A DNA stretch of 57,282 nucleotides, counting the filler, from Sphacelaria rigidula (taxonomy: Eukaryota), in assembly GCA_964200075.2 (NCBI GenBank). It is 3 parts of 3 records of this genome, joined end to end, with 100 filler letters (N's around TTAATTAATTAA, not from the genome) between each part and the next. Parts side by side here need not be neighbours in the genome. Positions count along the whole stretch, not along the records: positions 38,258 to 57,282 come from CAXNAA020000747.1; 2 more parts are not named here. One strand, given 5' to 3'. A program made the position numbers and the translations under genes. The notes under the pieces are model-generated. The model ran no database searches. It saw only the letters and a list, made by a program, of their open reading frames with translations, and was not told where the DNA came from. The number at the start of each line of letters is the position of its first letter. Within the stretch, counting starts at the first letter, position 1. This document shows positions 1 to 57,282 of this stretch, piece by piece.

Positions 1-430
1 AATAACACCCTCCTGATAAACGGGGTCTTTATCCGGTATCGCCCCCACAACACCAACCTGGGCGATTGTGATTTGAGCACGGTTTCCATGGAAAATGTTA
101 TGCAAACCCCCCCCCGAAAATAGGTCATCCGCAGAAAATGCTAGACTGAGGTCTGTGCAGTACAGTATAGGAGGGAAACACGATCTCGATCGTTATTGTG
201 AAGAATTTTATACGTATGATTTTATCTGAATATTTATGGTTTCGTCGCTGAAAAACGGGAAACTGCTTATATTGGACCAAAAACGGTCAATAACACCCTC
301 CTGATAAACGGGGTATCAAGTCCGTATCGCCCCCAAAACACCAACGTCAGCACTGTAGTTTGAGCACGGCCTACCCTTTTCCCCTGAATTTACCGGCGCC
401 AGCACTTTCAAGTAGTAATGAAGAACAGTA
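1..430 (+). repeat. Interspersed repeat with internal duplication; another copy at ~16370-16690
   Basis: AATAACACCCTCCTGAT.AACGGG occurs at 1, 289 and 16474, with shared flanks (TCTCGATCGT..TTGTGAAGAA). Confidence 0.75.
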
Positions 431-2919
431 CTCAAGAAAAACTCAGAAAAAAGGACAACTACGAATTCTGAAAACTTCTGATGCTGACTACTATATCTCG
501 AAGCATGCTTCGCCGAGTCAAGCGATGAGCAGCTCGATAGAAAGCTCTTAGCGGTGAAATGAGTTGCGCGTTTTCATAGTGCCCGAGCCTCGTCAGTCTG
601 TAGGGTTCAACAGCTCAAGATTGCCAGAAATGGTCGATCAATGCCTGAAACAGTTCAACCTCTAAAATACCCCTCCAGGCCGTACATGAGACTTTCCACG
701 CTTGGTGTAGTATATTGCTCGCCACTGTAGCCTCCTTCTACATCTGTCGAGTGGGATATCGATGAGTAGTTGTAACCAAACGACAGTGATAGTGGCAAAA
801 TGGCAAACAAAAAAAAAGGTCAAATCTGCAGAAAGCGATTCATAGTCCATTCGCATTAGCACTAGCCGCTTGATAAAGAGAAAACCCCACTGCTTGTGCT
901 TCCGATGATGTTTTTGTTCCGTGCCAGGACACGCTCACGACGGCGTGAGACATCATGCAGTAAGCTTCTATGTGAGGCCGAGATCGTCACGACCTAGTTT
1001 GATGGCGTTACAATATGTCACGTGCGATTCGACGATCATGTCCTCGGAAAAGCCGGGTGTCGTCTACCGCCCCGACTGCTATTCGACCCAACCCTTCTGC
1101 ACCATGCGGGAAGACATAACATTGCGCGGGCGCACGTCTTTCGCAATAACCGAATACGAGCTAGGCCGGCCATCAGCGATTTTGAAACGAAGAGTGGAGA
1201 TGCTTTTGGCATTTCCAAGAGTTACGGGGTAGGCGCTGAAATTCTGACACGGCATTTTGATCATCAATCTGCGCAACCCTGTGAGGGGTGCAGAGGACCA
1301 AAAAAAAAGACAGTTGGAGCGAGTTGAAGTTTCAGCAAAAACAGGAAAAATGCTATGACTTCCTCGAAAATTGACAAGAACGATCACAACTTTGCGGCAC
1401 ATACGGGCACTCGCGTCAACCACATCCCTGTATATTTTCAGCCAAACATATGTGAAATTGGGCTTCGCGTCGCACTTCTTGCGTGACACTGGTGGTCAAA
1501 CTGATACAACAGCCTCAAATGACACGGATCACGAGTTCGAATCCCGACACGACAAAAAGGTGCTTGTGTGCACACTCTCTCGCGCCTCTGGGTTGCAAAG
1601 GGTGTCAGCGTTTTGGTGATGGTCTTGCTTTTGCGGGGGGGGGGGGGGGGGGGGGGGAAAGGGTAGCTTCAAGTAGCCCTTCTCCCTCGGGCGGTGATAT
1701 ACGGCAGTTGGTTTGAAAGTGTTTTCCCATTATGGAGCTTCTGACGAGCTTGATGTCATCTTGCAGCACGACCAGGATGCTCTCGCCGAAGCACGTCAGG
1801 TGTGCGTGTGCGGCGCAGCGCTTCATTGTAGTTACACCGCATTTTGTGAAACGAAACTTCTACAGACATTCCATCGCACAAAGAATTGGAACGTACTCGG
1901 TACTCAATGCAGTACAAAAATATCATCGCCACAAGTGCACCAGTCGGGCAGCGGTGGTACCCCATGTTACCAGTTTAGTCTACAGTTCAAAGCGACATGC
2001 TCAGGTTGTGCTGATTGGGGTAACCTGAAGAGTTATGGTGACATAGGATGCTGGTTTTACTTCCGGACCAGCTCGGACAGCGATCCGTTCTATAGAGATT
2101 AATTCGTAAGTGATTTCGTGGTCGCCCCCCCCCTCTACTGTCGAAACAAAATCACTGTTGAGGCACGAAAGATAATATGTGTAGAGGAGAGATCCGCAGC
2201 AAGGCTTAGTCAAGTCAAGGGAGATACTTGCGCCACCTCGTCCCACAAAATGGCGCCTTCATCACGATATGACACGACGATCAGAGTGCGTGAAAAGGCA
2301 ACGTCCCACATGATATTTGCCACGACGATCTTCACTCGTGCGAACAACCTCTCATTGATGCCGATCTTTTTCCTCCACTTCACATTTCGTCACCTACATA
2401 CAATTTGACAAGCCAACCAAACACCAATTTTCGACACAAGCCGCTCATCTATCGCAAGCGCACGCGCATACGCACACTGCATCTACCAAGTAAAAATCAT
2501 GAAGACTAATATTAACAGACGAAAAAAAAAGTTTCAATTATATCGCGTCGGATTACGCGTCCATACGTGCTCGTCGGAAGATGCAACCGATTCGACCCGC
2601 CCAAGCCATGGTGGGTATTGTCGTTTATCTTCTTAGCCTTGGCACAACTGACACGCCTCAACATTTCCACCGCTATTTTCAGCTACTTTTGACCTCTCAG
2701 GGAGTCACACAAAACTCGCCAACGTGGGTGTCCGAAAGTAGAAAACATCCCCGCCCACACCCTCTTCCATTCATGTAACACGCGGAGGTACTGTTTCCAG
2801 TTACAGGCGCCGAATTTTGTTCCCTTTCGCATCCATGCACTGCAACATGCTACAAGCCCTCCTCCCCCTACTATTCCCCCCCCGCCCAGACGTGGCCGGC
2901 GATTGTCCTCGTGTTCCAT

Positions 2920-5900
2920 CTACTCTCCATCCCGGCCGTTTGAGTGATCGTCATGCCCACCGCCATGGCTGCCACGGTGATCAGACCCGCCGTCTCCATT
3001 GGCATGATCGTCATCACGCCCCCGGTAACTGCGGGGGGGAGAACGGGAAGGCGACCTGTCTCTGTCACGCCTGATGGAGGGGCTCCTGGAGTAGCCGCCG
3101 CGACCACCCCCCCGCGAGCGGGAGCGTGATCTGGATCGAGAGCGACTGCGGCTCCTCCGGCCTCGATCCCGGGACCAGCTGTCCCTCCGGCGAGGGGGAG
3201 ACCTGTCCGTTGGCGCGAAAAGCAACGGCAGGGGTTCATGGCACAATCTGGTTGGTGAAGAATAGGAAGCATCTCCACTTCGAGCTAATCAAAACTAAAC
3301 TACTCCACTCACAGATATGCATTTTATTTTTTGTGACATACGCGACGAACGTACAAAATCCGATCCGTGCGATTGATTCACCGACGGAACAGAGCAGCCC
3401 CTCACTCACTTCGGCATCCATCAAATGACGCCATCTCCTCACAAATTCATCACGAGCGAGGCTTGGTAAAACAACTGCGAAAATATTTTGCATGACCCAT
3501 GTGTGTGTGGAGGTGCCACTACAAAACAAACTTATTCGTTCGACCATCGTCGGTTGTGCTCCATTCCGGGCGGGCGGGCGGGGGGGGGGGGGGGGGGGGC
3601 CCATGTGTTGTTTGCCTTTTTTTTTTGACCATCCACCACCCCCCCCTTTTAAAACGACGCCCCNNNNNNNNNNGGTGGTGGGTGGTGGTGCTGGGGCGGT
3701 GGGGGTGGTCGCCCTGCTGTGCCCATGTGTTGCTTGCCTTATTCGTTTGACCATCGACCACGCATCCCTTTCGAAACGACGCACCGTTCCTCGAGCCGTG
3801 TACAGGAGAGGGATGGTTTGATCCCTTGATACCACGAACTCGTGCCGGGGGAAGGGGAGGGGTTCGAAGTGCTAAAAAAAAAACACAGAAGGGGCCGCCA
3901 AAGGGAACCGCTAGCTTCGAACCACAGGCCGAGGGTGCTGCAAGGCCGCACAGAGCGCGGCCACAAATACAGGAAAAGCAATTTCATTTCTTGGGCCAGC
4001 ACCATCACCTGAAATATACTCTTCTGAACGTACCTCGAGTATGACCTCGAGTAGCGGCGGCGAGGAGGCGAGCGAGAGCGACGGGCAGCATAGCCACCAT
4101 ATCCCCTCGAGCGCGACCTCGACCTGGAGCGGCCGTACCTCATGCGAGGCTCATCACGTTCCTTCCTCACCATGTCTTCCGGTCTCTTGCGCTTTTCCTG
4201 CCGACAGCAACGTATAATACACAAAATGCAGCGAGGGGCATCGGCAATGTTCTAGGGGGGAACATGACAGCCACATTAAATTCAGCAGGAGCAAATGCAC
4301 GCGCCTCGTGCTCCTCCGGCTGTGGACGATTCAATGGACAAGTCGGTAGAGAATAGGGGGACTGGGTGCACATGAGGCCATTCGACTACCCACCTGAAAA
4401 TCTTATATCGCGATTTTTATCCTCTCGAGGGTAAAGTGACCCTCCGGAGTAAAAAAAACACCCTCTAGAGGATATTTCAGACTCAATTTCGGTCATATAA
4501 CGAATCCTCTGTAGGGCAACTGATGCTCCAGTGACTAATGAGGTCTCAATCCCTCTAGAGTACCAAAAATTTGGTGCTCTGGAGCACGTGGTTATCGTGG
4601 ACGTCCCGTAGAGAAATAAATATGAATCATCATTCCTATGGCCTCCAGGGCATAGGAATCGACTCCGGAGGACATAGCCGTGCAGTGTCCTCCAGCGTGT
4701 ACATTTACACTCGTGTCCCAACTGCTTCCAGGGCACCTTTGGAACCCCAGAATTCTTGTGGTATGAACCATCACGCCAGATATATATTTAGATTGAACCA
4801 TGCAAACCCGACAACACTAATTCCCAGCTACCACCACAACCCTGCAGCGAAGAGCCCGGGTATAGATGCAAAATGCCGTAGTTGGGTGTGATGTAGTTCT
4901 TGTTGGTGGAAGTTTAAACTTGAGCATCTTCTTCCATGGTCGCGGACTCGCACGGCGCGGGAACCATGCAGGGTAGGGTGCGGGCAACAACCGGCGGCTT
5001 TTGGCATGCACACTCATGGGCAGTGTAGGCAGGCACAGCTGCGCACACTGTTCAAGTCCTTTTACATATAGACAGTCCTGCGCTGTCTGTATTGTACTTT
5101 GCTCGCTTCGCTTTCACGTCCTACTGGCTGTAGTTGTGCGCATGATGAAATGACAGGCGTCGCGATGTATGCTCAGTGGCTGACGGCATATAACACCCCG
5201 TGCACTTACAGGCATCCACTTTGTTCAACTAAACGTAGCGCATATGCCCTGCTAATTCTGCAGCATATTGCACCGCACGTATAAAAGCAGGATATGGTAC
5301 TGTCCTGCACGGTATTGTACAGTTCAGTACAGTACCAACCCGTGCTTACTGTTGTGATCGTCATGAACGTACAGAATAGATGGCGATCATAATTTTTCGC
5401 GTTTCAACATTCCTGGTAATATTCAACACCAGGAATGTTGAAACGCCTAACCCCATAACTTATGAAGATAAAAAAGATGGAAGGTTTGGTATTCGCACGT
5501 ATGTCCTTTACACATGTCAAGATTTCATCGAGAACGATCCAAAATTGAACGAATATGCGTCATTGCGTCAACAACCGGCCACTTTAGTATACGGAGGTGA
5601 ACCAGTCACGAATATTTCGAACGAATTTATGCTGTTCAGTTTCAAGCTGTTTTCGATGAAATTGTGACACGATGTACAGGACGTATGTGAGAATACCTAA
5701 TCTTTCCTCTTTAGTTTTCCTGGATGAATTATTGGTAATTTCGTTCCGTCGCCTCTAACTCGCGGAGTAAAAAATACACACACGGCAGGAACGAAGGAGC
5801 GCTTGCACACATGTCCTGTACATATCAAAATTTCATCGTAAACGACCGAGTATTGAGCTCGGGAATGTTGCTACAGCTTGTGCGGCACCACGCGGCGCAG

Positions 5901-10101: not shown

Positions 10102-13100
10102 ATGAAGACCGCCTACACACCCACGACCACCACCAGCACCAGAAGAAACAGAACAAGATTGGCAGCAGCAGCTATAGCTACTCTATTTCATGCCTCCCCC
10201 GCCGGGTCATTCTGTTCCCCACGGCCAGTAACATTCCGCGCATGTTTACAAACTGCTCCATCAACATCAACAGCGACATTCTCCAGGCCCTCCTCAGAGC
10301 GTCGGTGGGCACGCAGCAGCTGGGGGGGACGCGAGAGGGGTTGGGGCGGACGCGGGGAGGGGATAAACAGGAAGCACGGCGTACTGCTACTTATGTCGTC
10401 GACGGACATTGAGTCTCCCTTTGCCACCCCTGGTGTGGCTGGTAATGAGATGGAAGAAGATGACATAGACGCGGTGCTGCCACTTACCCTGGAGAATGTG
10501 GAGAAAGTTTTGGATGAGATGAGGCCGTATCTTATGTCTGACGGGTGAGTAACGTCTACGGCTGTCATGTAGGGTGGCGGGAGCGGGATACTCGTTGCAT
10601 GTGTTGTCTGGTGGGTGGGAGAGGGTAGTGAGGAGGGGGGGCATAATTTTGGTTGCTCAAGAGATGCGTGTTGATGCGTTTGGGGGTTGCAGCAGCTCTG
10701 CTCGGTTCTGGTGTTTAAGTGTTGCCGATACCCTACTGTCATGTTACACGCATTGCGACTTGGCGACAAATACGACGCACAATCGAAACGGGGGGGACAC
10801 CGATACAACTTAGCCCGTCGCCACGCCATCATAGACAACCCGTGTGAGTCGAACTAGTTGCATGAACCCCAGATGTTACGAAAGAATCATGCGCAGATTC
10901 CCGTACTCGGGTATTTCGCCCGCAACAGTCACACCGTCTTCTCCATCCAGTTGTTGCTCTCTGGGGATCAATTTGGCTGCCCTCAAGCAATGCCTCTGTC
11001 CCTCTTTCTCCTTCGCAGCACCTGTATCTCATCGTTGTTGGAGGGATGAAATGTACATGTGCTTGTGCTCAATCCGGTGTTTCCGTGAGCTAGAGCAACT
11101 GTACGCGATGGTGTGCTACAGATGGCGCTTGAAATATATTCACACAATCACACAGACTGCCCACTCGAACATATCCCCGCCCTAGCCCGCGGAGCCCGGA
11201 AGACCTGTGATAACAATCCTACGGGCAATTTTTTTAGAGACTGCTCTGGTCTCGAAAAGGTACACCTGGTCAACCAGCACAAGCGGCGGTACCATCGGAG
11301 AAAAAATGAAGCAGGAAATGTGCTCGTCCGGTTCAGACGACGCATTTGTGATTTGGCTTGTGCTGGAGTTGGGTCCTGTCACGGAATGCAATGATGCTAC
11401 TGCAATATGTATCTTGTCTTCCCCCTGTTCCTCTTCGGTGCACAAAAGTGGTGGCCATCTTCCACTTCAACGCTGCGCTGCGATCCAAAACGCGATCGCA
11501 CAAATATGTCGCAATTCTCAACGCATGTATCACATACACGTCATGCATCCTATTTTAGCGGCTATATTTCAAGCCCAACATGGTGCTCTTGGCCACATTC
11601 GGTGTGCTTTCGCTGTTGGTGGTTTCATCCTCGCCCTTTTTGTATATTTTTATTATTTTCGCACATTAGCCCGATCTCTCGAACCAGTGGTCACAGACGT
11701 GAGCTCGTCCTTTCCAATTCCATCACAAGATTTTTTTTGTACTCCCGCTTAATTACAAGAACATACACAATTGGCTGAAATATTACCAAAATGAAAGTAT
11801 GAAGAGAGATCCCAAGAAAAACATGAAAGTAGCTTCCCCGAGTTCAAGAGATCCTATTTGTAACCTCTTCATGTGCGGCAAAGTGTATCGCCTTTGACCT
11901 TGATATACTGAGCTGGTGCGTATGTATCTCAGCTACCCGTGCACATGGCAGGTTGATTTATCTCATCACGTGCGGTGTGAAAATAGATGTATATCTCTGT
12001 GCCGCAGTGCGGGGTCTTTTCAATATTATGGGGGCGTTATTTTCGAAGCGTATGCGTCCAAAGACAGCACACCTGGCGTCCGATGATGCCGAAACTTTAG
12101 GTATGTATGGGCTTAGGTCGCAAGTTGGTGACGTCACAAAATTTCCCGCGATCCAAGGCGTTCTGTGCGCAAATTGGCTCGAAATGATGATTGTGGACAG
12201 CCAAAGTCCTTTCGGAACATTCGACCGTTCGGACAAATCATCGCCGGTTTGAAACGCCAAATCCACAATTTTTCAGGCCTGATTGCTCGACAAAGAGAAG
12301 AAAGTTGACCGGTGGTCAGAAAAATCTCGACGCAATTTTTGCACCAAACCACGTGCCTGGGCTGCGCGTACCTGGGTTGCAACGCTGAGAACAAAGCCCA
12401 AGGATTGATTCGTACGGTACTAATCAATTACGCTAAAATCAAGTAATTTCCAGACGAACCATCAACTCGTCCGACCCTTGGAACATTCTTCACCTTCTAG
12501 TGTCAATTACAGAGGGTGCAAGATGAAACCGCCGCTGAGGCACCGGCAGATCTTGCCAGTATAATCGTTTTACTCGGTCCGCCTGCTGGTCGACGCGCGC
12601 AGTAGCGTAGGCGTAGGTAACAAGCACCATTCAGGCTTGGTGATATTTTCCGGGTTGTTACCGTCCGGGTTTTTACGCCGTCTCGCGCGAGAGGTGGTCG
12701 TACAGCATAGTCAAAGACAACAGTGTCTTCTGCCAAGGGCCGCTGTGAAGCTTTACGGAAAGAGGGCAACGTCCCGCTACAGACGGTACGACAACTTCTC
12801 AGCAGGACGCCAAGGCAGACCGACCAAGAGGGGGGGGCGTACTCATTCGTTGCCTGCCTTAGTCGTTCGACCATTGACCACGCATCCCTTTCGAGACGGA
12901 GCACCATTCCTACTACTCATAGAAACACCTCTGGAGGCAGTTGGTCTTTCGCGATGCTCTCAGAATAAACCGGTGGTTCTTGTGGACGCTGGTCGCACGT
13001 GAATATCTTGAGCTTTCTTGAACATGCACCTCGCCGACCTTTTTGCAGACTTTTTTCAGCCGTTTCACTTGCTCTCATGTTACGACAGCGATCATTTCGC

Positions 13101-18156: not shown

Positions 18157-19031
18157 GTGAGTATCGTTCCAACGCCTCGAGCTTTTCATTTGCTTGTTTG
18201 TTTGATTGTTTGGTTGTTCTCTCTTCCTCTGTGTGCCGTGTGCTTCGCGGACTATCAGAATCATATTCAAATGGTTTGAACGAACGTCTACAGCTTTTTT
18301 GCCCAACGCTTTTTTTTTAGTTCGAAGCGTTACCTTGCATCCCTACAAAGCCGGGACGGAGCACCCCAGGTTTTCGCCAGACCAGACTCGCAATTAATCA
18401 CACAAGCGTGAAGCGCCGTGGTGTGCTCGGCGAGTCGCATGAAGGGTGAGCTGCATCCTGCTGAGATTTTCAGGCCCGAAGCGTGTTGATCATCTCGCAT
18501 TTGGATGACAGCCTCCAGTGAGTTTCTTCATTTTCTGGTGTCGCCACTTCCAGAGACAGCCGAGGGGGGGGGGGCGGCAATAAGCGTCGGGTCCTCTCTT
18601 TACTGCTCGAATGAAGGGTGAGGTTCGGATGGGTGTTGGGGCCCCAGGAATGCGCTCGATCAGTCGGGTCGATGAGGTCTTCATGTTCACTCTCGAGTAG
18701 GATATGATACCCACTTTGCATCTCACTGGTTTGTATAAGTAAGAGTAATGCTAGTTTGTTTGTTTTCTCGTTGAGCTCTGCAGATGCCCAAAAAGTGTAA
18801 TGCGTGCAGTATGGAATCGACACTGTACGCAGTACACTTTTATGACAATGCCATCTATTGCCCAGGGTGTAGGCGATTGTCGATGGACACTTTTGCCCAG
18901 GGTGTAGTCGAACTTCCGAAGAGATGGAGATCAAAACGTGACGTTATATTCCTTCGAACACTATGAACCATTCGACCGCCACGGTGGGGGGGGGGAGGGG
19001 GGGTTACTCTCATGTGGGTTTGTTGTTCCAT

Positions 19032-38157: not shown

Positions 38158-38257
38158 NNNNNNNNNNNNNNNNNNNNNNNNNNNNNNNNNNNNNNNNNNN
38201 NTTAATTAATTAANNNNNNNNNNNNNNNNNNNNNNNNNNNNNNNNNNNNNNNNNNNN
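38158..38257. other. Artificial scaffolding spacer N44-TTAATTAATTAA-N44
   Basis: Identical in structure to the spacer at 19032-19131. Confidence 0.97.
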
Positions 38258-38272
38258 GTACCCGGTGTGGCG

Positions 38273-38395
38273 AGAGGGGGGTGGGCCGGGGGGGCGGACT
38301 CATTTGTTGCTTGCCTTAGTCGTGTGACCATTGACCACGCATCCCTTTCGAGACGGAGCAAGTGTGACCATTGACCACGCACAGAGGGGGGTGGG
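38273..38395 (-). mobile_element. Same G-tract retroposon family, 13-bp TSD
   Basis: AGAGGGGGGTGGG occurs at 38273-38285 and 38383-38395, flanking the conserved ..CTCATTTGTTGCTTGCCTTAGTC..GACCACGCATCCCTTTCGAGACGGAGC core. There is a 20-nt internal duplication at the 5' junction. Confidence 0.72.
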
Positions 38396-38399
38396 GCCC

Positions 38400-41359: not shown

Positions 41360-41470
41360 TGTGTTGCTCGTGCTTGTGTTTGTGTTTGCGTATGTGTTTG
41401 TGTATGTGTTTGTCGTTACTTTGTTGTTGTTGTTGTTGTTGCTTGGTGGTGGTGGTGGTGGTGGTGTTTC
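41360..41470. repeat. Compound microsatellite (TGTGTT)n-(GTT)n-(GGT)n; others: (CAA)n 29698-29724 and (CAGTR/CAGCA)n 42704-42790
   Basis: Read directly from the sequence. Confidence 0.9.
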
Positions 41471-43367: not shown

Positions 43368-43457
43368 TTTTGTTCGTCAGAACGAACTCCATCACTGAGC
43401 CACTCAGTCAGCGCTGACTGAGTGGCTCAATGGTGGAGTTCGTTCCGACGAACAAAA
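43368..43457. repeat. 90-bp spacerless palindrome
   Basis: 45-bp arms, 42/45 complementary, centred on CAGC|GCTG. Confidence 0.95.
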
Positions 43458-43694
43458 CACACGATGGAAGGCACGCTATGTCAAACGGACTGATTCTCAA
43501 CCCTCCCCCCATTCACCCACCGGTCCATTCCCTCCCTTTTGACGGTAGATGTGGAGGATTCCCAAGACTCACTCACGGGATGCAACGTCTGGATGCCTGC
43601 TTGGACGTCGGCGGGGGCAGTCCGGATGTTGTATTCGACACCAATGTCGATCCCGAGGTAAGAGCGCCACGAGTCCCAGCTCGCTGCATGGTTC

Positions 43695-45513: not shown

Positions 45514-45749
45514 TATGATTCTGCAAAGCGCACTTGCTTAACATAGCAGCATCTGGCTTCTTGGCTCATGTTTGGGATCATGGTCGTGATTTCGATCGGA
45601 ATCAATGGCCCCTATAATTGTGCTTTTCAGAGCTTGGTACGAGTATTTGACTCCGACGCTCCTAATTTACACCGACGAGATAGCTGATATATTGCATCCA
45701 TACATTGTTTTATCTCATGTCCTCCAGACAGGTGGTGAAGCAACTGTAT

Positions 45750-47893: not shown

Positions 47894-49410
47894 AGTGCAG
47901 GTATTAATGAACACCAGACGAGTTCATATCAAAGATGACTGTAGGTCCAACTCTGAACCAAACCACGATCTCCAAGTTTGTCTTTTGTTATTCCTACCTG
48001 CGTCTATCTTTGCACAGTCATCGGCGCCAGTCTGTGGCTGGAATGAACGGTGGTCGGACATCGAGCGAACCGCCGGCAATCGTTGCTGTGACGAGTTGTG
48101 ATGAACGCTGGGGGGAGGGAAGTCCGAACGCGTTCTCCAATGCTTCCTCTTCAACAAGCTGAACCACTCTGCAGCGCAGCGGATGGTCGATGTGACCACC
48201 TTGCCTGCTATTCATACCACAGTTTCCCTTCGGCAATACCGCCCCCTTTTGATGCGCAGGAGTAACGGTATCACAGACGGTGGAAGCTATCGGCGCAGTA
48301 CAGGTGGCGACTTTACTTGACAAGCTCTAATCTGAGGCGAGGCTCGTTTCTTATTCTTATCGCCGAGCCAAGTTTATTTTTTAGAGCCATTTTCTTACTT
48401 TCCGCACACGTGCAATCAATGGTGAGTCTCTTGAAGGCCAATTTCTTATTTCTCTCGGACTCGTGAAAAATGATAGAATTATTGAAAACAAACGTCTTTT
48501 TATGCCTTCAAAGGTTGAGTAATGTATGAAATACTGTACAATAACTGTAGTACTATACAAAAGTATGTACTGACTCCTGTATCGAATTCGGCGACGAGGG
48601 AGGTAAAGAGGGGTGGGGCATCCTTGTGTCGAGGGGCTCATGGGTCTGCCACCAGTTACTTATTTCCCTAGGCTGCAGTGTCGATGACAGATTTCTTATT
48701 CGCCGGGCCTCTTGAATCTCTCCATTTATTATCCTTATTTTCGCCTTGATTTGAGCAAATTTCGTCATTATCGACTTCCTAGAACCTGAAAAATCTGAGC
48801 CTCGATTTCTTAGCTGGTGACTTCTGGCGCAGCTCGGAACTCCCGTGCTTGCATTATTTCCGCCAGTGTCGCTCACAGTCCACGTTTGTTGCAATCTGAA
48901 ACCAGTCATCATGCGCTGTATGACCGTATTCTTCCCGACAGCTCGCTGGGTGGTCTTGGGGGGGGGGGGCTATTGACGCATCATTCGGGCGACGACGTCC
49001 GCAATTTGAAAGCACCTGAACGCGGCGCAATTGCCGCCTGCTCATTTTGGATACCACCGACGATTTGAAGCGCTTTTACACCGCATTCCACATGTTCTAA
49101 CACCCGGCACCTAGATGACAATATCTCGACACATACTGGAGGTGCAGAGACAAATCAAATTGCTCTGTGTAGACAAAACGCATATCTATCAACGGGTCTA
49201 TGTTCCAGCGGTGCAGGTTCCTGCTCTTAAATCAAAGTTCGAGGTGAAGTGAAGGTCATCCACCGCATATTTTGCCCTATCCCGACGGTAGGTTGATACG
49301 ATCTTGGGCTTGGACGACGGCCAGTAGATAGCTGTGTCTGCCTGTAGAGTTTCGGTATACATATATCCATGCAGCGTCAGTAATCGACGAAAGCGTGTCT
49401 GAGGGGCTTG

Positions 49411-49930
49411 TTGGAAAATGACTTTTTCGGTTGTACAAATAGTAACAACTTTTTTCAGGGCTATCCGTCGCTGGTTTGTGCGTTGTATTGGATATAATTG
49501 AGTCAAACTTCGCTCAGAACATAGCTGCAGACATATACTACAGCTATGTATGAACATCATTACCGTTCCGTGCTTTGTCCACTTTGATCCCGTGGAGTCC
49601 TCATTTTTGGGGTGGTGGTGAAAAACTTGACACTAAACAGGGCGAAACACTGTTGTATCGCGTGAAGGACGGACATGTTGGAAAATGACTTTCTCGCTTG
49701 TACAAAAAAGCAGTACTTTTTTTTCATGATATCCATCGCTGGTTTGTGAGCTGTACTGTGTGGAATCAAGCCAGACTGCGACCAGAAGGTAGCTTTGGAC
49801 ATATACTACAGTTGTGTATAGCTTTCGTTGCTATGTAACCTTCTGTACACTTCTTAGATCCCATCGCGTCTTCATTTTGGGGGTGGTGGTGGGAAACGTG
49901 ACACTAACCCCCGGCGTAACACTGGACGCG
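49411..49930 (+). repeat. ~267-bp degenerate tandem duplication
   Basis: TTGGAAAATGACTTT..TTGTACAAA..TCGCTGGTTTGTG..GACATATACTACAG..GGGGTGGTGGTG..TGACACTAA occurs twice. Confidence 0.8.
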
Positions 49931-50659
49931 GGTCTGCACAAATGGCCTGATATACAAAGATAATACGTCCTGGTGTACTTACTATTTCTAGAGGTACTAT
50001 ACTGTACCGTATTAGTCGGCCATCAGTTCGACCATGCTGGAAAATGCTTTGGATTGCGTCAGTGCGTCGCTGGCGAGGATGCAACAGCGAACGCAGGAAC
50101 GCCGCGGCGGGAGAAATTTACATTCTGCACTTGTATTTCGTTGCACATTCCTTATACGCTGACCGCTACCAGGGTGGTTTCCTACGTCGCAAATCATGTA
50201 CAGGCTGGATGATGTTTTCAGACTGTGATGCCTTCCTTCACGGTCGTGGTAGAAAACCTGACGCATGTGCAAGGTGTCTTGTGCGTATACAAGGCATACC
50301 GAGAAGAACAACATCGGCATTGCACGTACCCTCAAATCGTTTCAAAAACACCCGACATGCTGGAACGTGCATCGTTTCGAACAAATAAGCTGAACCGTGC
50401 AGAGAGTAGCAGTCTGAATCTTCCCAGCCGTTCTTGGCCGTTCCCAGATTTCTGCGCCGGTCGCAGCCTGCCATCCTAAAGTTTGGTTGTTATCGACTTT
50501 TTGAATGTTTCGTCTGTCGTCTGTCGGGCATACGTATGTGTTGGCGGTCTCATGCTCACTGCTGCACCTGTAGCTTCGTGAGTCAGCGCACTCGGCAACA
50601 CTAACACGAGTATACAGTTATATTTTTCAACCATTTTTCCGACCATCTGGTAAACTGTG

Positions 50660-50867
50660 TTAACCCCTAGACAGCGAGAGTAGGTCATGCGTGGAATCGG
50701 CATCAATTTGACTTGAAAAAAGTATGCATGGTCCTGGTAGACTACCCTTGCGGTCTAAGGGTTAACCCTTAGACCGCGAGGTTAGTCTTCTGTTGAACCG
50801 GCATTAATTTCAAGTGCAAAAAAGTATGCATGATCCAGAAAGACTAATCTCGCGGTCTAAGGGTTAA
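50660..50867. mobile_element. Two tandem 98-bp piggyBac-type MITEs sharing a TTAA
   Basis: TTAA|CCC..GGG|TTAA|CCCTTAGACCGCGAG..CTCGCGGTCTAAGGG|TTAA, with units at 50664-50761 and 50766-50863. Confidence 0.85.
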
Positions 50868-51539
50868 ACACATGACGACTCTGACCTCTCAACTCAAATC
50901 GTTGTGCACATGACCCATACGTTTCACCTGCTATTGCACTCCTTGAACAACCCTGGCGTCCAAGCAAAGTCTTGTTGGTTATGCTCGACATAAACGCCTC
51001 GACTGGTGTAGTAGGTGTCGCCATATCTGTCCTAGCTAAAAAAATTGTCTTGTGTGCCTCGCATAGGTGTCGAATGAAGTGGTGTCAGCCAATGTGGACG
51101 TCGTGAGACTCCCGGTGACAGTAGGAAACGTCGACTGTGGCCGATGATTTTCCTCGTGTGATGTAGACGAGGATTGACCGTAAGTCGTGGGGTGCAGGCC
51201 ACTAGATCACTTGGGAAAGCTTGACGAGCGCGAGCGGGTTAACCAGAAGAAGTGGTCCCCAATGATTGATCGTAGTTCGCTGGACAGATCCCTGTTACCG
51301 TGGAGTCCCAGATCCGGCTGTACAGATATGGGAGTTTTTGTGCTCCCGGGAACCACCTCTGAAACAGCCGTTCACTAGGTTACACGTCTATTCTGGGATG
51401 ACAACACGTCAACACGTCATACGGGGAAATCTCTCCGCACATGCCAAAATGGCGATCTTCATATATAGGCGTAGAGTCACAGCAACTGTTGTACCCTGTC
51501 TTGTACAGGCAGTGCAGTACAGTAGTTAACGCAAGCACC

Positions 51540-51714
51540 ATGCTGCCTTTAGTGGCTTTCCTCGCTATACTTTTCCCACTAGCCATGATTTGGAAGGTGC
51601 TTGGGAATCCGTGTGCGTCAATTTTGAGGGCAGCTGGACTATTGTCGCCCCCTGCCGTCGTGCCGGACGTCGATCTTACTGGCCGCGTTGTCATCGTTAC
51701 TGGTGCAAACACAG
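51540..51714 (+). CDS. Short-chain dehydrogenase/reductase (RDH11/12-like), exon 1 only
   Basis: An N-terminal hydrophobic anchor (MLPLVAFLAILFPLAMIWKV) precedes DLTGRVVIVTGANTG, the start of the Rossmann TGxxxGxG motif. The exon ends at a phase-1 donor ACAG|GTAACC. The next exon was not found in the window. Confidence 0.85.
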
Positions 51715-51918
51715 GTAACCGCTGACTGTACATGTCTCTGATATCTGTCTCAGTCGCCCTTCCGGTTGCTCTTCTTTACCTCTCTCTACGTGTGCACGTT
51801 TGCGTATCTGCATGCATTTCTTTTCGTGGATCATGGGATTCATTGGCGTCGGCCCTGCGGCCAAGTCCGTGCCTGTCCAAGTATCGTCAGAAAGTCGCGT
51901 ATCATGTCAGGTCGATTC

Positions 51919-53299
51919 TGAGGCTCACCTCTCACCTCCCACAGTTGGGGGTAACTCAAAGTGAACTAGATATTTTTGCGCGAAGCGCGATTATGGTGAA
52001 GCGTTTGAACATCGCCACTCGGTCAAAATCGAGGACTCACCCGAAATTGGGGGGGAAACTATCGAATGGGACATCCACTGTATCACTGTGCTGCAGCACA
52101 ACCGACTCATGCTCTGTCTCGTGTGCTGTAGCTGTCGCTGCGCTGTGGCGTCTTCGGGCCTCTGTGGAGACGGTTTGGTCTCGCTGGGAATGCCTGGGCT
52201 AATTTATGTTGTCATTCCGTTCGTCTCTATGAACAATGATGTCAAGTCGGTACGCAGTGCTCTCTACACACTGTTGAAACGTTCATGGTGTGTTTGGCTG
52301 TTCCGTCTCGAGTCAAGCAAACAAGGTGCTTCCCAAACCCATCATTCCTATACTGTGGTTGTTGGCTGTGCTGTTGTGCATCTGAACACTCGACGACGAT
52401 CACGGTGCGATGTGCGCTGGAAAGTGCCTGAGTAGTTCTACTGCTGCATGCTGTGTTTCGGTCTGCACAGCATCGGGGTGGGATCAAAGGGCTCTCAAAA
52501 ACAAAGAAAGGTTGAAACAATCGTCACGTGACGGCTGTGCAGCTGTCTGTCGCATCTTCTCTGATCCCTCAATTATAATCGGGTGCTGTGATCGGGGAAG
52601 ACGCGCAAGGCGGGTGCAGGTTGGGGCAAACAAACTGAGCAAACACGGATCTGCTGTATCCTCGTTTAGTGACGGTAGCAGCTGTCTGCCTCGCAGCGGC
52701 GCAATGTGTGGGCCAATCAAAGCTGCTTTCCCCTCGTATCCCACTCGTTTTTCTCATCTTCCTTGGACCGCGAGGTTAGTCTTCTGTTGAATCGGCGTCG
52801 ATTTCAAGTGAAGAAACGTACGCATGATCCAGATAGACTAATCTCGCGGTGAAAGGGTTAAATTAAGGTCGCCGCATTTTGCTGTACTTGGGCCAACTCT
52901 AATGGGAGCGTTTGAAATTTTATTTGCAACATTTTCAGATATATATTTTTTCTGTCATCATGGTGAACGGGCACATATTACACAACTACGGCAGAGAAAA
53001 CAAAAAAGTCGTCTAAAATTATTGCAAAATGTAATTCTAAACGCTCCCCCAAGAGTTGGCCATAGAGACTGTGATTGGTCGAAAAACGTTTACACTTCTA
53101 ATTCTCGCCTCTATCTGTGGGCCCAGTACCATGCAGGACATGACATGTCCCATTCGAGCATTTTCCCCCTGATTTGGGTTGGTGAGTCGTTGATTTTGCC
53201 GAGTGGCGATTTTCAAACGCTCGACCGACCATAACGCGCTTCGCGCGAAAATGTTTTATTTCACTTTGAGTTATCCCCAACTGCAGACGGTGAGCCACA
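51919..53299. mobile_element. Non-autonomous DNA element with ~150-bp TIRs (TG.GGCTCACC...GGTGAGCCACA)
   Basis: 51919-52075 is the reverse complement of ~53143-53299. The interior is homologous, inverted, to ~25480-26535. Confidence 0.7.
52760..52861. mobile_element. 98-bp piggyBac-type MITE nested in a long-TIR element (another degenerate copy at ~36372-36452)
   Basis: CCTTGGACCGCGAGGTTAGTC..GACTAATCTCGCGGTGAAAGGG-TTAA. It is absent from the paralogous site at ~25640. Confidence 0.8.
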
Positions 53300-54004
53300 T
53301 TGAAGCCTACACTACACTACAACAGTAATGGGTACCGCTTACTCGTATCGAACTGACGAAACAGGTCAACCTCGAAGAAGTGATCTGGAGAATAAAGGTG
53401 AACGCAGTGTCACGTTCCTACGGCCGCTCCTTACAACAGACGAAAATAAATTTCAGGAAGTTCAACTCTTGGAGCTTTTACGTCATTTAGGCCCTACAAG
53501 AGAGCTACAACAGTACACAGGCTGGGCCGCCTAAAAAGCGGACTTTCCTTCAGCCGGTTCTAACTAACGATCTATCGCGAGTGGTGCCTACTATGACACA
53601 TCGTGGTAATCTGCAAATCAACGCGCGTCGTTCACTTCACGTAGCACTGCGATCTGACGAGTTCCTGTGAAACGAAATACCAAACTGCAGCCAGCTGCGA
53701 AGTGTAGAGAGTTGAGGGTGGCATGTGCAGCGGAATTAGGGGGGGTAACGGCTGAAATCGCATTTACGGTATCAGTCAGTTGTGCCGCGGCCACAAAGAA
53801 AGGGTGCTATACTACCTCCGGTTGTACAAGAAGGCATGCACTGTAGGCGCGCAGTGTCTGAGATGGCACGCAGACGAGACCTCCAGCGCGCCAAGGCGTC
53901 GCGCCTGTAGAAAACGTCAAAGTCCCGGCTGAGGTAATTGTACTCCAAAATCAAACGAACCGACTGTCGACAGAAAACGCGATTTCAATGCTCCATTTGA
54001 AGTT

Positions 54005-55730
54005 GCTTTCCATGAAATTTCGACACGATGTACATGGAGTGTATGTGGAGCCACTACCGTTTGCCCCTCTTTTTTATTTCATTTTCCTCGTATTTTATTG
54101 GTGATATAAATTTCGGAACAAATTTTCCTGGTACAAAAGCGTCGACAATTCATTGAAAACAAAAACGAAAATGTCAAGGGGGGCGTACTCATTTGTTGCT
54201 TGCCTTAGTCATTTGACCATTGACCACGCATCCCTTTCGAGACGGAGAAAATGTCAAGGGGGGGCAATAGGAACTTCACAACATACCTCATGCGCATCGT
54301 GTCGGAATTTCGTGAAAAAATACTTGAAATTAAAAAGCATAACCGCGTTTCAGTTTTCCGTGGCTGGAAATTCTCCACACGGGAACCAGTCTTAGACACG
54401 AACACGCGATTTAGCAGCTAAGTTTGAGGTGGTTTTCTAAAAACATTTGACACGATGTACAGGATGTATGTGCAAAGACGCCCCCGTTTGCCCCTTACAT
54501 TTTGGTTTTTTTCTCCGTGAGTTATCGGCGACCAAAAATTTCAGAACAGTTTTTTTACGGTCCAAAATCGTGAAAAACTCCAGGAAAAAAAAATGTACGG
54601 GGCAAATGGGGGCGTCTTTGCACGTACATCCTGAACATTGTGTCAAAATTTCATAGAAAACGACCCAACAATGACTTGCTACATCGCGTGTTCACATCCC
54701 TGTCCGCGTCTTCGGCGGCATAGCCTGTAGGGGAAGTTTGCAACCTTGGAATGACTTGCTCTACTAGTTAAGGCGGCTCCAGGATATCTTCCACTTTTCC
54801 GGTGGCCGCAGTTTATAGTTTGGCCAAACAATTTTTCTTGTCCAAGAATGGTCAAATCCAGAGAAAAATGGCGATTTTTTCTAGATTTGACTGGTTTTGA
54901 CAGTTCTTGGACAAACATTCTTGTCTGGCCGAAAAAAAAACTACGGCCACCGGCGACTAGGAAATTTTTCTGGAACCGCCTCAACGAGTGGAGCAAGTCT
55001 TTCCGAGGTATCAAACTCCGCCTAGCTCTTTTTTAGGGCGTAAAACGACGTAGAAGCCCCCGAAGGGCACTTTTCCAGATTTTCATCTATGTCTGTTTTA
55101 TGGAACGGCCTTTAGTCTGTGACGCCAGCCAGAAGAAGAACTGGTGGATCACTGCTGTTGAGGGACCCCCCAGTCTCACTGGCCTCAGTTTCAGTTGTTA
55201 GCCTTCACAACATCTCATTGTCAGGAGTGTCCTTCCAGGCACCAACCTCCTCGACACGCAGGGTATCATCTCGGCCATTATCCAGATCATCACTGCCAAC
55301 TCAACGTAACCTGGTGACGGCGTATTTTCGTCAAAAGGCGGAGTTTGACCGCTTGGAATGATTTGCTCTACTCGTTGAGGCGGGTCCAGGACATCTTGCC
55401 GTTTTCTGGTGACCGCAGTTCTCATTTTGGCCAAACAAGAACGTTTGTCCAAGCACGGTCAAGTCCAGAGGAAAATGGCGATTTTTTCTAGATTCGAGTG
55501 TTTTTGACCGTTTTTCGACAAAAAATCTTGTTCGGCCAAAATGAAGACTGCGGCCACTGGAGAACGGCAAGATGTCCTGAAACTGCGTCAACTAGTAGAG
55601 CAAGTCATCACAAGGTGTCAACCTACGCCTAGCTCTCTTTTAGGGCGTGAAACGACGTCGAAGCTAAAAAAAGGCACTTTTCATATTTTAATTCGTGTCT
55701 GTTGTAAGGAGCGGCCTAAAGTGCTTTTGT
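54005..55730. repeat. Array of palindromic units plus ~380-bp tandem duplication; related pieces at 5490-5860, 28860-29290 and 53400-53540
   Basis: 54432-54660 is a palindrome with ~80-bp arms. The motif GACACGATGTACA..GTATGTG recurs in alternating orientation. 54740-55120 is similar to 55345-55725. Confidence 0.7.
54167..54263 (-). mobile_element. 5'-truncated non-LTR retroposon 3' end (63 bp) with 17-bp TSD, inserted at a G-tract
   Basis: GAAAATGTCAAGGGGGG is duplicated at 54167-54183 and 54247-54263 around an insert shared with other copies. Confidence 0.8.
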
Positions 55731-57234
55731 ACACTCGGATCCTGTGAACAAATTTGATGTGTCGTGCAGTACTTCGTTGAAGCAGTATCTGGTCCCACTT
55801 CGTGAGACAGAAAAAAGGCCTGGAGACTGGTGGGAGAATCCAACGTCGTGTCATCAGCAAATGCCTTCCTCAACACCTATCCAATAGTCGCATGCATGGC
55901 ATTTTACTGACGGCCATCGACACCTGAAGAGGGTACCGTAGTCGGATTTTTTATTTGAGGCCATAGGTGTGGCGCCGATATAAGGGTGAAAATGTGTGTA
56001 CGCGTGTGTTGGTCATCCCATCTATTCTGGACGCCAGTTTACACCTTTCGGCACATGTGGGTGCATCAGTCGGGTTTAACCTGGAGGAAGATTAATGTGA
56101 AGGTTGTATTTTTTATTTGTATCTGAACTCTACCTTCTTCATATGCGGTGCTCGCGTTTCTTTGTATCGTGGGAAGGATCCGGCGCTCCCTTTTCCTCCT
56201 CGACGGTGAAATCGAACGGTGTGTACCCACGACATGGTGGCTCTCTAGAAAGGTACCTCGGCCAATCAGCGGCCTTTGAATCATTCTGAAATAAAAAATA
56301 TCAAGTCCAATTTTCCAGTAGGCGTTTACTTCATAGGCTTTCGCATAATTCGTATAAGTTGTGTTTTTTTTTCGGTGTTGCACACTAAACTCAAGTAATT
56401 GTAACGCCACGGCGGGGTTTCCACTTCAAAATTACGCTTTTTTTAAAAAGACGCAAAATGTTTCGGGGGAAAAACGCAGTAGAAGCACCAGCCTAATTCC
56501 CACCAGCCTAATTCCCAACCCAATTTTGACCCGATCTCCACATGCTTGACATTGTAGTAACCGCCATATTCTCGGGAAGCTAACGGAAAGAAAAAATTAG
56601 AGGACGGGGGCCGACTTATACCCAACACCGTGTTTTGTCGGTGATGTGGGGTTTCGACTTCGTCGGATTTCCGCTGATGGTGGGCACCAGAGATCAGAAA
56701 GCCTCCTGACGGTTTCCCCCATAAATGTTAAAAGCTCTGACCGCTCTCGAATTTCGCAGCTCGGCAGGTATTGAAGCTCCACTCGGAAGAAGGTAATGTT
56801 AAAAAAAAAATGAAATTTCTCCGCTCTGTACGGGCGGCCGAGGGTCTTCACGCTGGGACCCCCGGAAGCCGGTACAGAACACCGCATGCGTGCGGCATAA
56901 TTCATGGAGCATTTCCCGTGTACAAGGTTTCGATGCGTAAATCGACGACTTGGTAAATTCTTTTTTGTCCAAGTTTAAACGCACCCCAGGAAGACGTTTC
57001 TATACAAACATTAAGGAGTGAGGAGTTTGCGCCGGGCACGAGAAACTTCATCGCACAAAAGCGCAAAGCTTTACGCCATCTTGGTAGTCCCACTCTGAAA
57101 ATTTGTACACATGCACTATGGGCCATAAAAAAAGACGAGTTTCGCTTGGTTTTTACTTTTGTTCATGTTTTTCGCCCGTTTTCGGGGTTCCAGAGGGCAC
57201 AGGACGCCCGATAATCCCAAAACTCCGAGAAACA

Positions 57235-57282
57235 GGGGGGGGGGCGTACTCATTTGTTGCTTGCCTTAGTCATTTGGCCATT
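57235..57282 (-). mobile_element. G-tract retroposon copy cut by the window end
   Basis: A G10 run is followed by CGTACTCATTTGTTGCTTGCCTTAGTCATTTGGCCATT. Confidence 0.75.

What the first reader, a model, noticed from the sequence alone, without database searches (positions are those of the whole stretch)
54167..54263. Retroposon family that inserts at G-tracts and ends in a C-run rather than poly(A)
Seen: a ~65-bp core recurs at least five times (~3728, 12837, 38295, 54184, 57245), always next to a G-run or G-rich tract on the same side. Two copies have long TSDs that themselves end in G's: 17 bp GAAAATGTCAAGGGGGG here and 13 bp AGAGGGGGGTGGG at 38273/38383. On the minus (inferred sense) strand most copies end ..AATGAGT(A/C)CG-CCCCCC. 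Established: variable-length TSDs, 5' truncation and a fixed 3' end indicate target-primed reverse transcription; L1 primes on T-tracts using its poly(A) tail. Inference: this is the G/C mirror image, with a C-rich RNA tail annealing to a nicked G-tract. It could both target and seed the many long G runs in this window (e.g. 1636-1657, 3580-3599), which are G-quadruplex-prone. I do not know whether this family has been described.
Basis: partly seen in the sequence, partly recalled or inferred. Interest (0 to 1): 0.78.

Follow-up and report, generated by a model that had tools for sequence, protein, structure and literature searches.

The report
C-tailed LINE fragments beside G-runs
The repeat is the last 64-94 bases of a long retrotransposon (a LINE, probably of a brown alga) that ends in a run of C instead of poly(A) and lands in G-rich DNA; the same kind of element is already catalogued in the brown alga Ectocarpus.

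Summary
The core occurs at 3719, 12838, 38295, 54184 and 57245, plus a low-quality copy at 3600. All copies lie on the + strand. Five of the six directly follow a run of 6-20 G. The copy at 54184 has a perfect 17-nt target-site duplication (TSD). The copy at 38295 has a 13-nt TSD with a G7 tail inside it.

External copies show what the core is. It is the 3' end, on the minus strand, of a LINE with a single 1382-codon frame holding an APE-type endonuclease and a reverse transcriptase. The TGA stop lies 5 nt before the C-run. The window copies are extreme 5' truncations of 64-94 nt.

Named protein relatives come only from brown algae. A 2025 Ectocarpus transposon catalogue lists RTE-X LINEs as 'single EN-RT ORF; (C)n 3'' with 'C-rich' TSDs.

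Annealing of the C-tail to G-rich nicked DNA fits the junctions but remains an inference. I did not find it discussed in print.

The parts
54167..54183 (+). Left TSD copy (17 nt), ending in G6. The G6 (54178-54183) cannot be assigned between target G-run and element tail.
   Evidence: exact 17-nt direct repeat, spacing 80.
54184..54246 (-). 5'-truncated LINE 3' end. It is 63-64 nt long and 100% identical to the full-length copy L014. It encodes the last 19 codons plus the TGA stop and 5 nt of 3' UTR.
   Evidence: blastn; tblastn: P0004 residues 1342-1360, 94.7% identity.
54247..54263 (+). Right TSD copy (17 nt), followed by one more G. The target therefore held G7.
38273..38285 (+). Left TSD copy: 13 nt exact, or 16 nt if one G indel is allowed.
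38286..38294 (-). CC followed by G7 on the + strand. This is the C7 tail of the element on its sense strand, and it lies inside the TSD.
   Evidence: sequence read directly.
38295..38360 (-). 5'-truncated LINE 3' end, 66 nt, 95.5% identical to L014.
38361..38382 (-). Extra segment at the 5' junction. It repeats 20 nt of the element's own interior (38322-38341 recurs at 38362-38381), as a template jump would leave.
   Evidence: (exact 20-nt repeat, spacing 40).
38383..38395 (+). Right TSD copy.
12830..12837 (-). G8 run, which is the C8 tail on the sense strand.
12838..12938 (-). Older 5'-truncated copy. 94 nt match by blastn at 91.5%, and the alignment runs on to about 12938. No TSD was found.
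3719..3791 (-). Divergent copy (87.7%) with a different extreme 3' end. It follows a G-rich tract (3674-3718) and has no pure G-run next to it. It may be the 3' end of a non-autonomous relative.
3580..3663 (-). G20 run followed by a low-quality copy that stops at an N10 gap. It is possibly the same locus as the 3719 copy, assembled twice.
57235..57282 (-). G10 run followed by the first 38 nt of a copy (97.4%), cut off by the window end.
18986..19031 (-). Possible seventh, divergent copy: G10-A-G7 followed by a loosely similar 28 nt, then an N gap. It was seen by eye only and not found by blastn.
   Evidence: It is not among the hits.

Best explanation
The core is the extreme 3' end of an autonomous non-LTR retrotransposon (LINE). 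Its sense strand is the window's minus strand.

The element has one long frame: an N-terminal region with no Pfam match, an APE-type endonuclease, a reverse transcriptase, and a C-terminal Cys/His motif (...CPCGK...H....C...). The frame stops 5 nt before the end of the element. The element then ends in a C-run of variable length instead of poly(A).

New copies are made by target-primed reverse transcription. The endonuclease nicks G-rich DNA. The freed 3' end, a G-run on the window's + strand, pairs with the C-run at the 3' end of the RNA and primes cDNA synthesis. Synthesis usually aborts early, which leaves 64-94-nt stumps flanked by TSDs of variable length that begin C-rich on the sense strand.

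Shown here:
- the orientation, the open frame and its domains
- the fixed 3' end and the variable 5' ends
- the TSDs
- a tail lying inside one TSD
- signs of high copy number

Inferred:
- pairing of the tail with the target
- the endonuclease's site preference
- how the tail length is maintained (carried in the RNA and possibly extended by slippage)

By its features the element belongs with the RTE-X LINEs of brown algae (RTEX-1/2_Ec32 type).
For: 1. Physical link between tail and frame. L014 is a 5259-bp contig carrying G13 followed by the core. A 1382-codon open frame runs on the opposite strand (113..4261). Pfam finds Exo_endo_phos at 193-415 and RVT_1 at 763-1012. The frame is 88% identical to the 1360-aa protein P0004.
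2. External copies. In the metagenome scan, 3 of 13 loci (L002, L006, L013) are true copies. Each has a G-run (G8, G11, G7AGG) followed by the core, and their homology runs on for more than 400 nt. The L002 minus frame ends with TGA 5 nt before the C-run.
3. Window copies. They match only the last 19-41 residues of P0004 or P0012, at truncation points of 64, 66, 73 and 94 nt.
4. TSDs. There is an exact 17-nt TSD and an exact 13-nt TSD. In the 38295 copy the G7 run lies inside the TSD, and the 5' junction carries a 20-nt internal duplicate.
5. Contigs of four sequencing runs laid on 38258-57282. The three bins holding the element reach summed depths of 94052-186071 in X1, against 138-430 in the lowest bins. 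Loose ends lying before 54178 (145-154 per run in X1-X3) and before 57235 (310-691 per run in X1-X4) have G as the majority letter over the nearest 13-22 positions (agreement 0.38-0.47). Loose ends behind 54247 and behind 38360 (164-536 per run) continue with the LINE sequence.
6. Protein models. 12 of the 18 homologues end at or within one residue change of ...KASNK. Three more (P0008, P0009, P0020) read on past that point into proline-rich sequence, as C-runs would give.
7. Published catalogue. In PMC12477816 supplementary file 1, RTEX-1a_Ec32 is described as 'single EN-RT ORF; (C)n 3'' and RTEX-2_Ec32 as '(C)n termini/TSD'. All 6 RTE-X rows have TSD 'C-rich'. The 5 other LINE rows carry (CAA)n or (CA)n tails or no tail note.
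8. Named relatives are brown algae only: Ectocarpus sp. (P0013) and Sphacelaria rigidula (P0010). Both end at the same C-terminus.
Against: - Pairing of the tail with the target was not observed. Only two copies have readable TSDs.
- In the 54184 copy the G6 could be all target or all tail.
- In the 38295 copy the primer end would be ...GGG or ...GCC, which is not a clean G-run, and two C's may separate it from the tail.
- Copy 3719 has no pure G-run next to it, and copy 12838 has no detectable TSD.
- The 20 nt upstream of the G-run is clearly G-rich in only about 5 of 9 copies. In L014 it is C-rich (judged by eye).
- No empty site was seen: no joint skipping the 54184 insertion is among the 15 joints listed, and 1712 more were not shown.
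- RTE-X placement rests on shared features and on the paper's label for Ectocarpus elements. I ran no RT phylogeny and made no comparison with the published consensus sequences.
- The 3' end shows no unusually stable fold, with z-scores from -0.77 to +1.61.
Confidence: 0.82

Rival explanations
1. The G-run is purely target sequence. On this view the endonuclease cuts after pre-existing G-runs, the RNA ends at ...GAGUACG with no C-tail, and no pairing is involved.
For: In the 54184 copy the whole G6 lies within the 17-nt TSD, and the undisturbed right copy shows that the target already held G7.
Against: - In the 38295 copy a G7 run lies between the left TSD and the element body, so it was brought in with the insertion.
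- G-runs next to copies reach 10, 11, 13 and 20. Of the 63 runs of six or more G on both strands of the window, 45 are 6 or 7 long.
- In four runs G is the majority letter over 13-22 further positions upstream of the copy ends.
- The published notes call it a '(C)n 3'' end of the consensus.
Confidence: 0.08
2. The C-run is not in the RNA. On this view the reverse transcriptase adds it without a template, as G's on the primer strand, before it engages the RNA. The target is G-rich only because of the endonuclease's preference.
For: - Tail length varies from 6 to 20 or more.
- Two C's may lie between the target and the G7 run in the 38295 copy.
- Untemplated addition at the start of target-primed reverse transcription is known for other LINE enzymes. 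This is recalled, not from a call.
Against: - The intact-frame copy L014 carries a C13 tail at the same position, so a read-through transcript would contain it.
- A strict homopolymer of one base over 10-20 nt is not what I recall for untemplated addition.
- Related Ectocarpus LINE families keep family-specific tails, (CAA)n and (CA)n. That points to templated tails.
Confidence: 0.07
3. The feature is not a mobile element at all. It would be a conserved motif next to G-runs, or an assembly or sequencing artefact of homopolymers.
For: - Three copies lie next to assembly gaps: 3664, 19032 and 38257.
- Copy 3600-3663 is visibly degraded.
Against: - Exact TSDs flank two copies.
- The same end is joined to a 1382-codon EN-RT frame in an independent assembly.
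- It occurs in three further metagenome contigs.
- It is recorded in a curated library.
Confidence: 0.02

Closest known systems
RTE-X LINEs of Ectocarpus: RTEX-1a/b_Ec32 and RTEX-2_Ec32, with non-autonomous RTEX-N1 and RTEX-N2 (PMC12477816, supplementary file 1; table rows read)
   Same: - A single EN-RT frame and a '(C)n 3'' end.
- 'C-rich' TSDs.
- A size of about 5.5-5.9 kb. L014 holds more than 5.1 kb without reaching the 5' end.
- Thousands of mostly short copies. One search lists 1849 copies totalling 1,145,106 bp for RTEX-1a and 3007 copies totalling 1,059,065 bp for RTEX-1b.
- A shared 3' end of about 60 bp with non-autonomous relatives, which compares with the divergent 3719 copy here.
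- An Ectocarpus protein model (P0013) ends at the same C-terminus.
   Different: - The window's organism is not shown to be Ectocarpus. Its best host-gene relatives are 41-57% identical, and the only named one is Scytosiphon.
- The C-terminal 149 residues are 69% identical to the Ectocarpus model.
- The published consensus FASTA files could not be read, so identity to a named family is untested.
Human LINE-1 (L1): poly(A) tail pairing with a T-rich nicked target. The mechanism is recalled from general knowledge.
   Same: - APE-type endonuclease followed by reverse transcriptase.
- Target-primed reverse transcription, 5' truncation and variable TSDs.
- The TSD begins with the same base as the tail, so the tail/target boundary is ambiguous.
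- The best match among solved structures is L1 ORF2p (E 6.6e-21 over the RT region).
   Different: - The tail is (C)n, not poly(A), and the target is G-rich, not T-rich.
- There is one frame and no separate ORF1. L014 has 4 frames of 150 aa or more, and the other three lie on the opposite strand inside the main one.
- The 3' UTR is 5 nt.
- It is not a member of the L1 clade by its features.
RTE and CRE LINEs with simple-repeat tails: RTE-1/2_Ec32 with (CAA)n and CRE-1_Ec32 with (CA)n. More generally, LINEs with microsatellite-like tails, which I recall from general knowledge.
   Same: A non-poly(A) templated repeat tail, a very short 3' UTR, and non-autonomous partners that share only the extreme 3' end.
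   Different: The tail here is a homopolymer of C, which creates long G/C runs at every insertion.

Membership tests
Non-LTR retrotransposon (LINE) with APE-type endonuclease | Reverse transcriptase domain | tested here: met
   RVT_1 with E 6.7e-32 in the L014 frame and E 9.8e-31 in P0004.
Non-LTR retrotransposon (LINE) with APE-type endonuclease | Endonuclease/exonuclease/phosphatase domain N-terminal to the RT | tested here: met
   Exo_endo_phos at 193-415 and RVT_1 at 763-1012 in L014. P0004 and P0012 have the same order.
Non-LTR retrotransposon (LINE) with APE-type endonuclease | Fixed 3' end with variable 5' truncation | tested here: met
   Truncation at 64, 66, 73 and 94 nt in the window, more than 400 nt in L002, L006 and L013, and the whole frame in L014.
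Non-LTR retrotransposon (LINE) with APE-type endonuclease | Variable-length TSDs, with no LTRs or TIRs | tested here: met
   TSDs of 17 nt and 13 nt. There were 0 inverted repeats around the 3 copies tested. Only 2 of 4 complete window copies show a TSD.
RTE-X clade | RT-domain phylogeny places the element within RTE-X | not testable with these tools
   No reference set of LINE clades was on hand. [quoted passage not shown]
RTE-X clade | Single EN-RT frame and very short 3' UTR | tested here: met
   One 1382-codon frame. The stop lies 5 nt before the C-run.
RTEX-1/2_Ec32-type (brown-algal, C-tailed) | (C)n 3' end and C-rich TSD | tested here: met
   9 of 10 copies have six or more G within 3 nt of the end. 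Both TSDs begin C-rich on the sense strand.
RTEX-1/2_Ec32-type (brown-algal, C-tailed) | Sequence similarity to the published consensus | not testable with these tools
   The supplementary FASTA files MOESM1 and MOESM2 cannot be read here. The indirect evidence is that the Ectocarpus model P0013 shares the C-terminus at 69% identity.
L1 clade | Poly(A) tail and a separate ORF1 | tested here: not met
   No A-run on the sense strand at any of the 10 copy ends. There is a single frame in L014.
tRNA-derived or other small-RNA-derived SINE | Match to a tRNA or known RNA family | tested here: not met
   ARAGORN found 0 genes. Rfam found 0 matches at gathering score. In 12780-12960 the only match was one chance-level hit of 11.2 bits against a gathering score of 46.4.

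The most novel reading that the evidence does not exclude
The C-run may be the working counterpart of L1's poly(A). Reverse transcription would then start only where the RNA's C-run pairs with a nicked G-tract.

Each insertion would lay down a new G-tract, which becomes a preferred landing site for the next. The family would feed on its own tails. Over time this would build head-to-tail arrays and the strand-biased, quadruplex-prone long G-runs seen here: 8 runs of ten or more G on the + strand against 1 on the minus strand.

This would be a homopolymer-C-primed form of target-primed reverse transcription. I found no discussion of it in the paper searches, nor in the main text of PMC12477816.
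Probability: 0.3. Interest if true: 0.55.

Novelty: new member of a known kind. Interest (0 to 1): 0.33.

Why it matters
The finding explains a striking feature of this window. Several of the long G-runs and three assembly-gap neighbourhoods are the tails of one very abundant LINE family.

For annotators, short stumps of 60-95 bp beside G-runs in this kind of genome should be masked as LINE 3' ends. They should not be read as motifs or small RNA genes.

For transposon biology, the family is a natural test of how far tail-to-target pairing decides where a LINE lands, because the tail is C rather than A. It is also a test of whether a transposon can spread G-quadruplex-prone tracts.

The kind itself is already catalogued in Ectocarpus, so the surprise for a specialist is modest.

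Tried and rejected
**Searches that could not run or found nothing**
- Loci L002, L006 and L013 could not be extended.
- The viral-contig scan gave 0 hits.
- Earlier findings of this scan: nothing by place or by sequence.

**Metagenome scan.** 10 of the 13 loci were chance hits in unrelated, bacterial-looking sequence. I dropped them.

**RNA-gene readings were rejected.** Rfam gave 0 matches, ARAGORN 0, and there was one chance-level Rfam hit.

**Plus-strand sense with cap-derived G's.** I considered a reading in which the + strand is the sense strand and the extra G's come from reverse transcription of a cap. I rejected it because the coding frame and its stop lie on the minus strand.

**A stable 3' stem-loop.** Four folds gave z-scores of -0.77, +0.79, +1.61 and -0.40. 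No support was found.

**Sequencing runs**
- No RNA holder was listed.
- No empty-site joint for the 54184 insertion appeared among the 15 joints shown; 1712 were not shown.

**Pfam on window frames.** There were 0 of 7 long frames with a family and 2 of 149 frames of 90 aa or more (NifU-like, RING). No LINE body lies in the window. tblastn found only C-terminal matches.

**Host identification.** A search with P0002 gave 23 proteins. The best non-identical relative is 41-57% identical, and the only one carrying a name is a weak Scytosiphon hit.

**Protein atlas.** It returned only generic EN-RT clusters, which are of no use for clade placement.

**Paper searches**
- 'poly C tail' with retrotransposon returned 0 papers.
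- 'poly-C' with non-LTR returned 13 papers. I read passages of two, about a Blepharisma TIR and about L1 3' UTR tracts. Neither concerns a terminal C-tail.
- The other searches produced nothing on the mechanism.

**TSD for the 12838 and 3719 copies.** None was found by eye.
Full report

Yes. The stretch 54167-54263 reads as a 17-nt sequence ending in G6, then 63 nt, then the same 17 nt followed by one more G.

A 35-nt probe from the insert finds 38295, 54184 and 57245 with at most 3 mismatches, where shuffles give 0.00. The repeat finder groups 6 copies (family D14) and 5 copies (D10), all on the + strand.

With the 3' end of a full-length relative (L014) as query, blastn delimits the copies:

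| Copy | Length matched | Identity | Note |
|---|---|---|---|
| 12838-12931 | 94 nt | 91.5% | |
| 54184-54247 | 64 nt | 100% | |
| 38295-38360 | 66 nt | 95.5% | |
| 3719-3791 | 73 nt | 87.7% | |
| 57245-57282 | 38 nt | 97.4% | cut by the window end |
| 3602-3663 | 62 nt | 72.6% | cut by an N gap |

Runs of G20, G8, G7, G6 and G10 directly precede five of the six copies. The 3719 copy has only a G-rich tract before it. Only 43 of 57282 positions on that strand follow a run of six or more G, so the association is far beyond chance.

The two TSDs are exact. They are among only 12 exact direct repeats of 13 nt or more, at 20-150 nt spacing, in the window. Most of the rest sit in tandem-repeat blocks.

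One caution concerns the copy at 3600-3663. It differs from the 3719 copy at 11 positions, and each difference turns a base into its neighbour (read by eye). The sequence ends at an N10 gap. It is probably a degraded read end across the G20 run and may be the same locus assembled twice.

**2. What is it?**

The window holds no body of the element. tblastn with the full-length proteins finds only their last 19-41 residues, at four places. Only 2 of 149 frames of 90 aa or more carry any Pfam family, and both are host exons.

Copies from elsewhere were therefore decisive.
- **Metagenome scan.** A 19-nt invariant stretch gave 13 loci, of which 3 are true copies (L002, L006, L013). Each has a G-run, then the same start of the core. 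The three stay alike for more than 400 nt beyond the point where the window copies stop.
- **Coding frame.** On the opposite strand L002 carries an open frame of 149 residues. It has a Cys/His motif typical of the C-terminal part of LINE polymerases. Its TGA stop lies 5 nt before the C-run.
- **Protein homologues.** A search for longer proteins gave 18 hits. They include P0004 (1360 aa) and P0012 (1328 aa), each with an endonuclease domain followed by a reverse transcriptase.
- **Full-length copy.** A scan of genome contigs gave one contig, L014, evidently eukaryotic DNA binned into a bacterial MAG. It has G13, the core, and on the other strand an uninterrupted 1382-codon frame. Exo_endo_phos lies at 193-415 and RVT_1 at 763-1012, and the frame is 88% identical to P0004.

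This ties the C-run end physically to an autonomous LINE and fixes the minus strand as sense. The '65-bp core' encodes the last 19-20 codons, the stop and a 5-nt 3' UTR.

**3. Evidence on abundance and the tail**

Contigs of four runs that hold this region were laid on 38258-57282.
- The three bins containing the element have summed depths of 94052-186071 in X1, against 138-430 in the lowest bins. The tool warns that this is not a copy number, but it does indicate a very abundant repeat.
- Loose ends lying before 54178 (145, 147 and 154 in X1-X3) and before 57235 (310, 691, 658 and 592 in X1-X4) have G as the majority letter over the nearest 13-22 positions. Agreement is 0.38-0.47.
- Loose ends behind 54247 and 38360 (164-536 per run) continue with the LINE sequence seen in L002 and L014.

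So many other copies in that organism carry long G-runs at the same end and extend further 5'.

Three protein models (P0008, P0009, P0020) read past the stop region into proline-rich sequence, as C-runs would give. None of the 10 copy ends that I read has an A-run on the sense strand.

**4. How does it most likely work?**

The anatomy is that of target-primed reverse transcription:
- a fixed 3' end
- 5' truncation at many points
- TSDs of 17 nt and 13 nt (or 16 nt with one G indel)
- no inverted repeats around the three copies tested
- in the 38295 copy, a 20-nt repeat of the element's own interior at the 5' junction (38322-38341 recurs at 38362-38381), as a template jump would leave

Two junctions bear on the tail.
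- **38295.** The G7 run lies between the left TSD and the body, so it came in with the insertion.
- **54184.** The G6 is part of the 17-nt duplication, and the target already held G7. The boundary between tail and target is therefore ambiguous. This is the same ambiguity that L1 shows with A's (recalled).

On the sense strand both TSDs begin C-rich. This is what pairing of a C-run at the RNA's 3' end with a G-rich primer strand would produce.

I take that as the best mechanism, but the pairing, the endonuclease's preference and the way tail length is kept up are all inferences. The 3' end shows no unusually stable fold. Recognition by the enzyme, if any, is therefore not visibly a strong hairpin.

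**5. Comparison with what is known**

The only named relatives of the protein are from brown algae: Ectocarpus sp. and Sphacelaria rigidula. Both models end at the same C-terminus. A host frame from the window has only distant relatives, the single named one being Scytosiphon. One run that holds the region is labelled an algae metagenome. The organism is therefore probably a brown alga, but not one with a close named proteome.

The curated transposon table of PMC12477816 (Genome Biol 2025; supplementary file 1, rows read) describes the following:
- RTEX-1a_Ec32: 'single EN-RT ORF; (C)n 3'', 5867 bp, TSD 'C-rich'.
- RTEX-2_Ec32: '(C)n termini/TSD'.
- Non-autonomous RTEX-N1 and RTEX-N2: they share about 60-100 bp of the 3' end.
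- The other LINE rows have (CAA)n or (CA)n tails or no tail note.

That matches every feature found here.

The main text names the RTE-X families as the most abundant elements. In the passages and term counts I searched it does not discuss the tail ('c-rich' occurs 0 times). I could not read the consensus FASTA files and had no LINE reference set. Membership in RTE-X, and identity with a named family, therefore rest on features and not on a tree or an alignment.

A Saccharina genome paper also reports a recently active RTEX-1 (passages). Searches for a terminal poly-C tail in LINEs found nothing else (passages).

**6.

Some long G-runs here are simply tails of copies: 3580-3599 and 57235-57244, and perhaps 18986-19003. 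For 1635-1657 and four other + strand runs of ten or more G (14498, 18564, 39602, 48958) nothing links them to the element.

The strand bias is suggestive only. There are 43 versus 20 runs of six or more G, and 8 versus 1 runs of ten or more. All copies share one orientation.

The pair 3600/3719 could be a head-to-tail insertion into an older tail, but an assembly duplicate explains it at least as well.

**7. Verdict**

The structural interpretation is supported and now has its autonomous partner. The pairing mechanism is plausible but untested.

The kind is already catalogued in Ectocarpus, so this is a new member of a known kind. Interest is modest, and it would rise if C-run-dependent priming and self-seeding of G-tracts were shown.

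Noticed in passing
window 19032-19131 and 38158-38257: There are two 100-nt scaffold linkers of the form N44, a 12-nt all-frame stop spacer, N44. Each lies within about 40 nt of a G-run or element copy (18986-19031 and 38273-38360). The N10 gap at 3664-3673 follows another copy. The assembly seems to break at these homopolymer tails.
   Followed up: partly
window 15228-16266 and 43763-45511: There are blocks of tandem or interspersed units of about 157 nt and 41 nt (families D1-D6, up to 18 short units). The two blocks lie 28 kb apart. They have high depth in the laid runs and many internal joints.
   Followed up: no
window 30648-31250, 50654-50868, 52756-52862: A unit of about 100 nt recurs (families D8, D15, D18, D19). 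The bin 50323-50957 is among the deepest in the laid runs (67387 in X1), so this is another abundant repeat family.
   Followed up: no
window 38817-39615 vs 46134-46929, and 41791-41973 vs 49009-49191: Three pairs of 74-79% identical stretches all lie about 7.2-7.3 kb apart (D11, D13, D16). This suggests an old tandem duplication of about 7.3 kb.
   Followed up: no
window 5631-5696, 53987-54052, 54414-54479: A 66-nt repeat (D20, 70-74% identity) brackets the 54184 insertion at about 130-230 nt on either side. The young LINE stump therefore sits inside or between copies of another repeat.
   Followed up: no
window 17908-18276 (+) and 26350-26850 (-): These are the only Pfam-recognisable host exons: a NifU-like domain (E 2.3e-17) and a RING finger (E 2e-09). 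The long low-complexity frames at 23192-25462 (-) and 33731-34984 (-) have no family. The second has a 100% identical protein in the collection and relatives at 41-57%.
   Followed up: partly
P0004 residues 1-~165 and the L014 frame residues 1-~190: The region of the LINE frame upstream of the endonuclease has no Pfam match and is conserved between P0004, P0012 and L014. It could be an RNA-binding module standing in for a separate ORF1. It was not folded or searched.
   Followed up: no
L014 1-94: In this full-length copy the flank beyond the G13 tail is C-rich on the same strand. That is the opposite of the G-rich flanks of several other copies.
   Followed up: no
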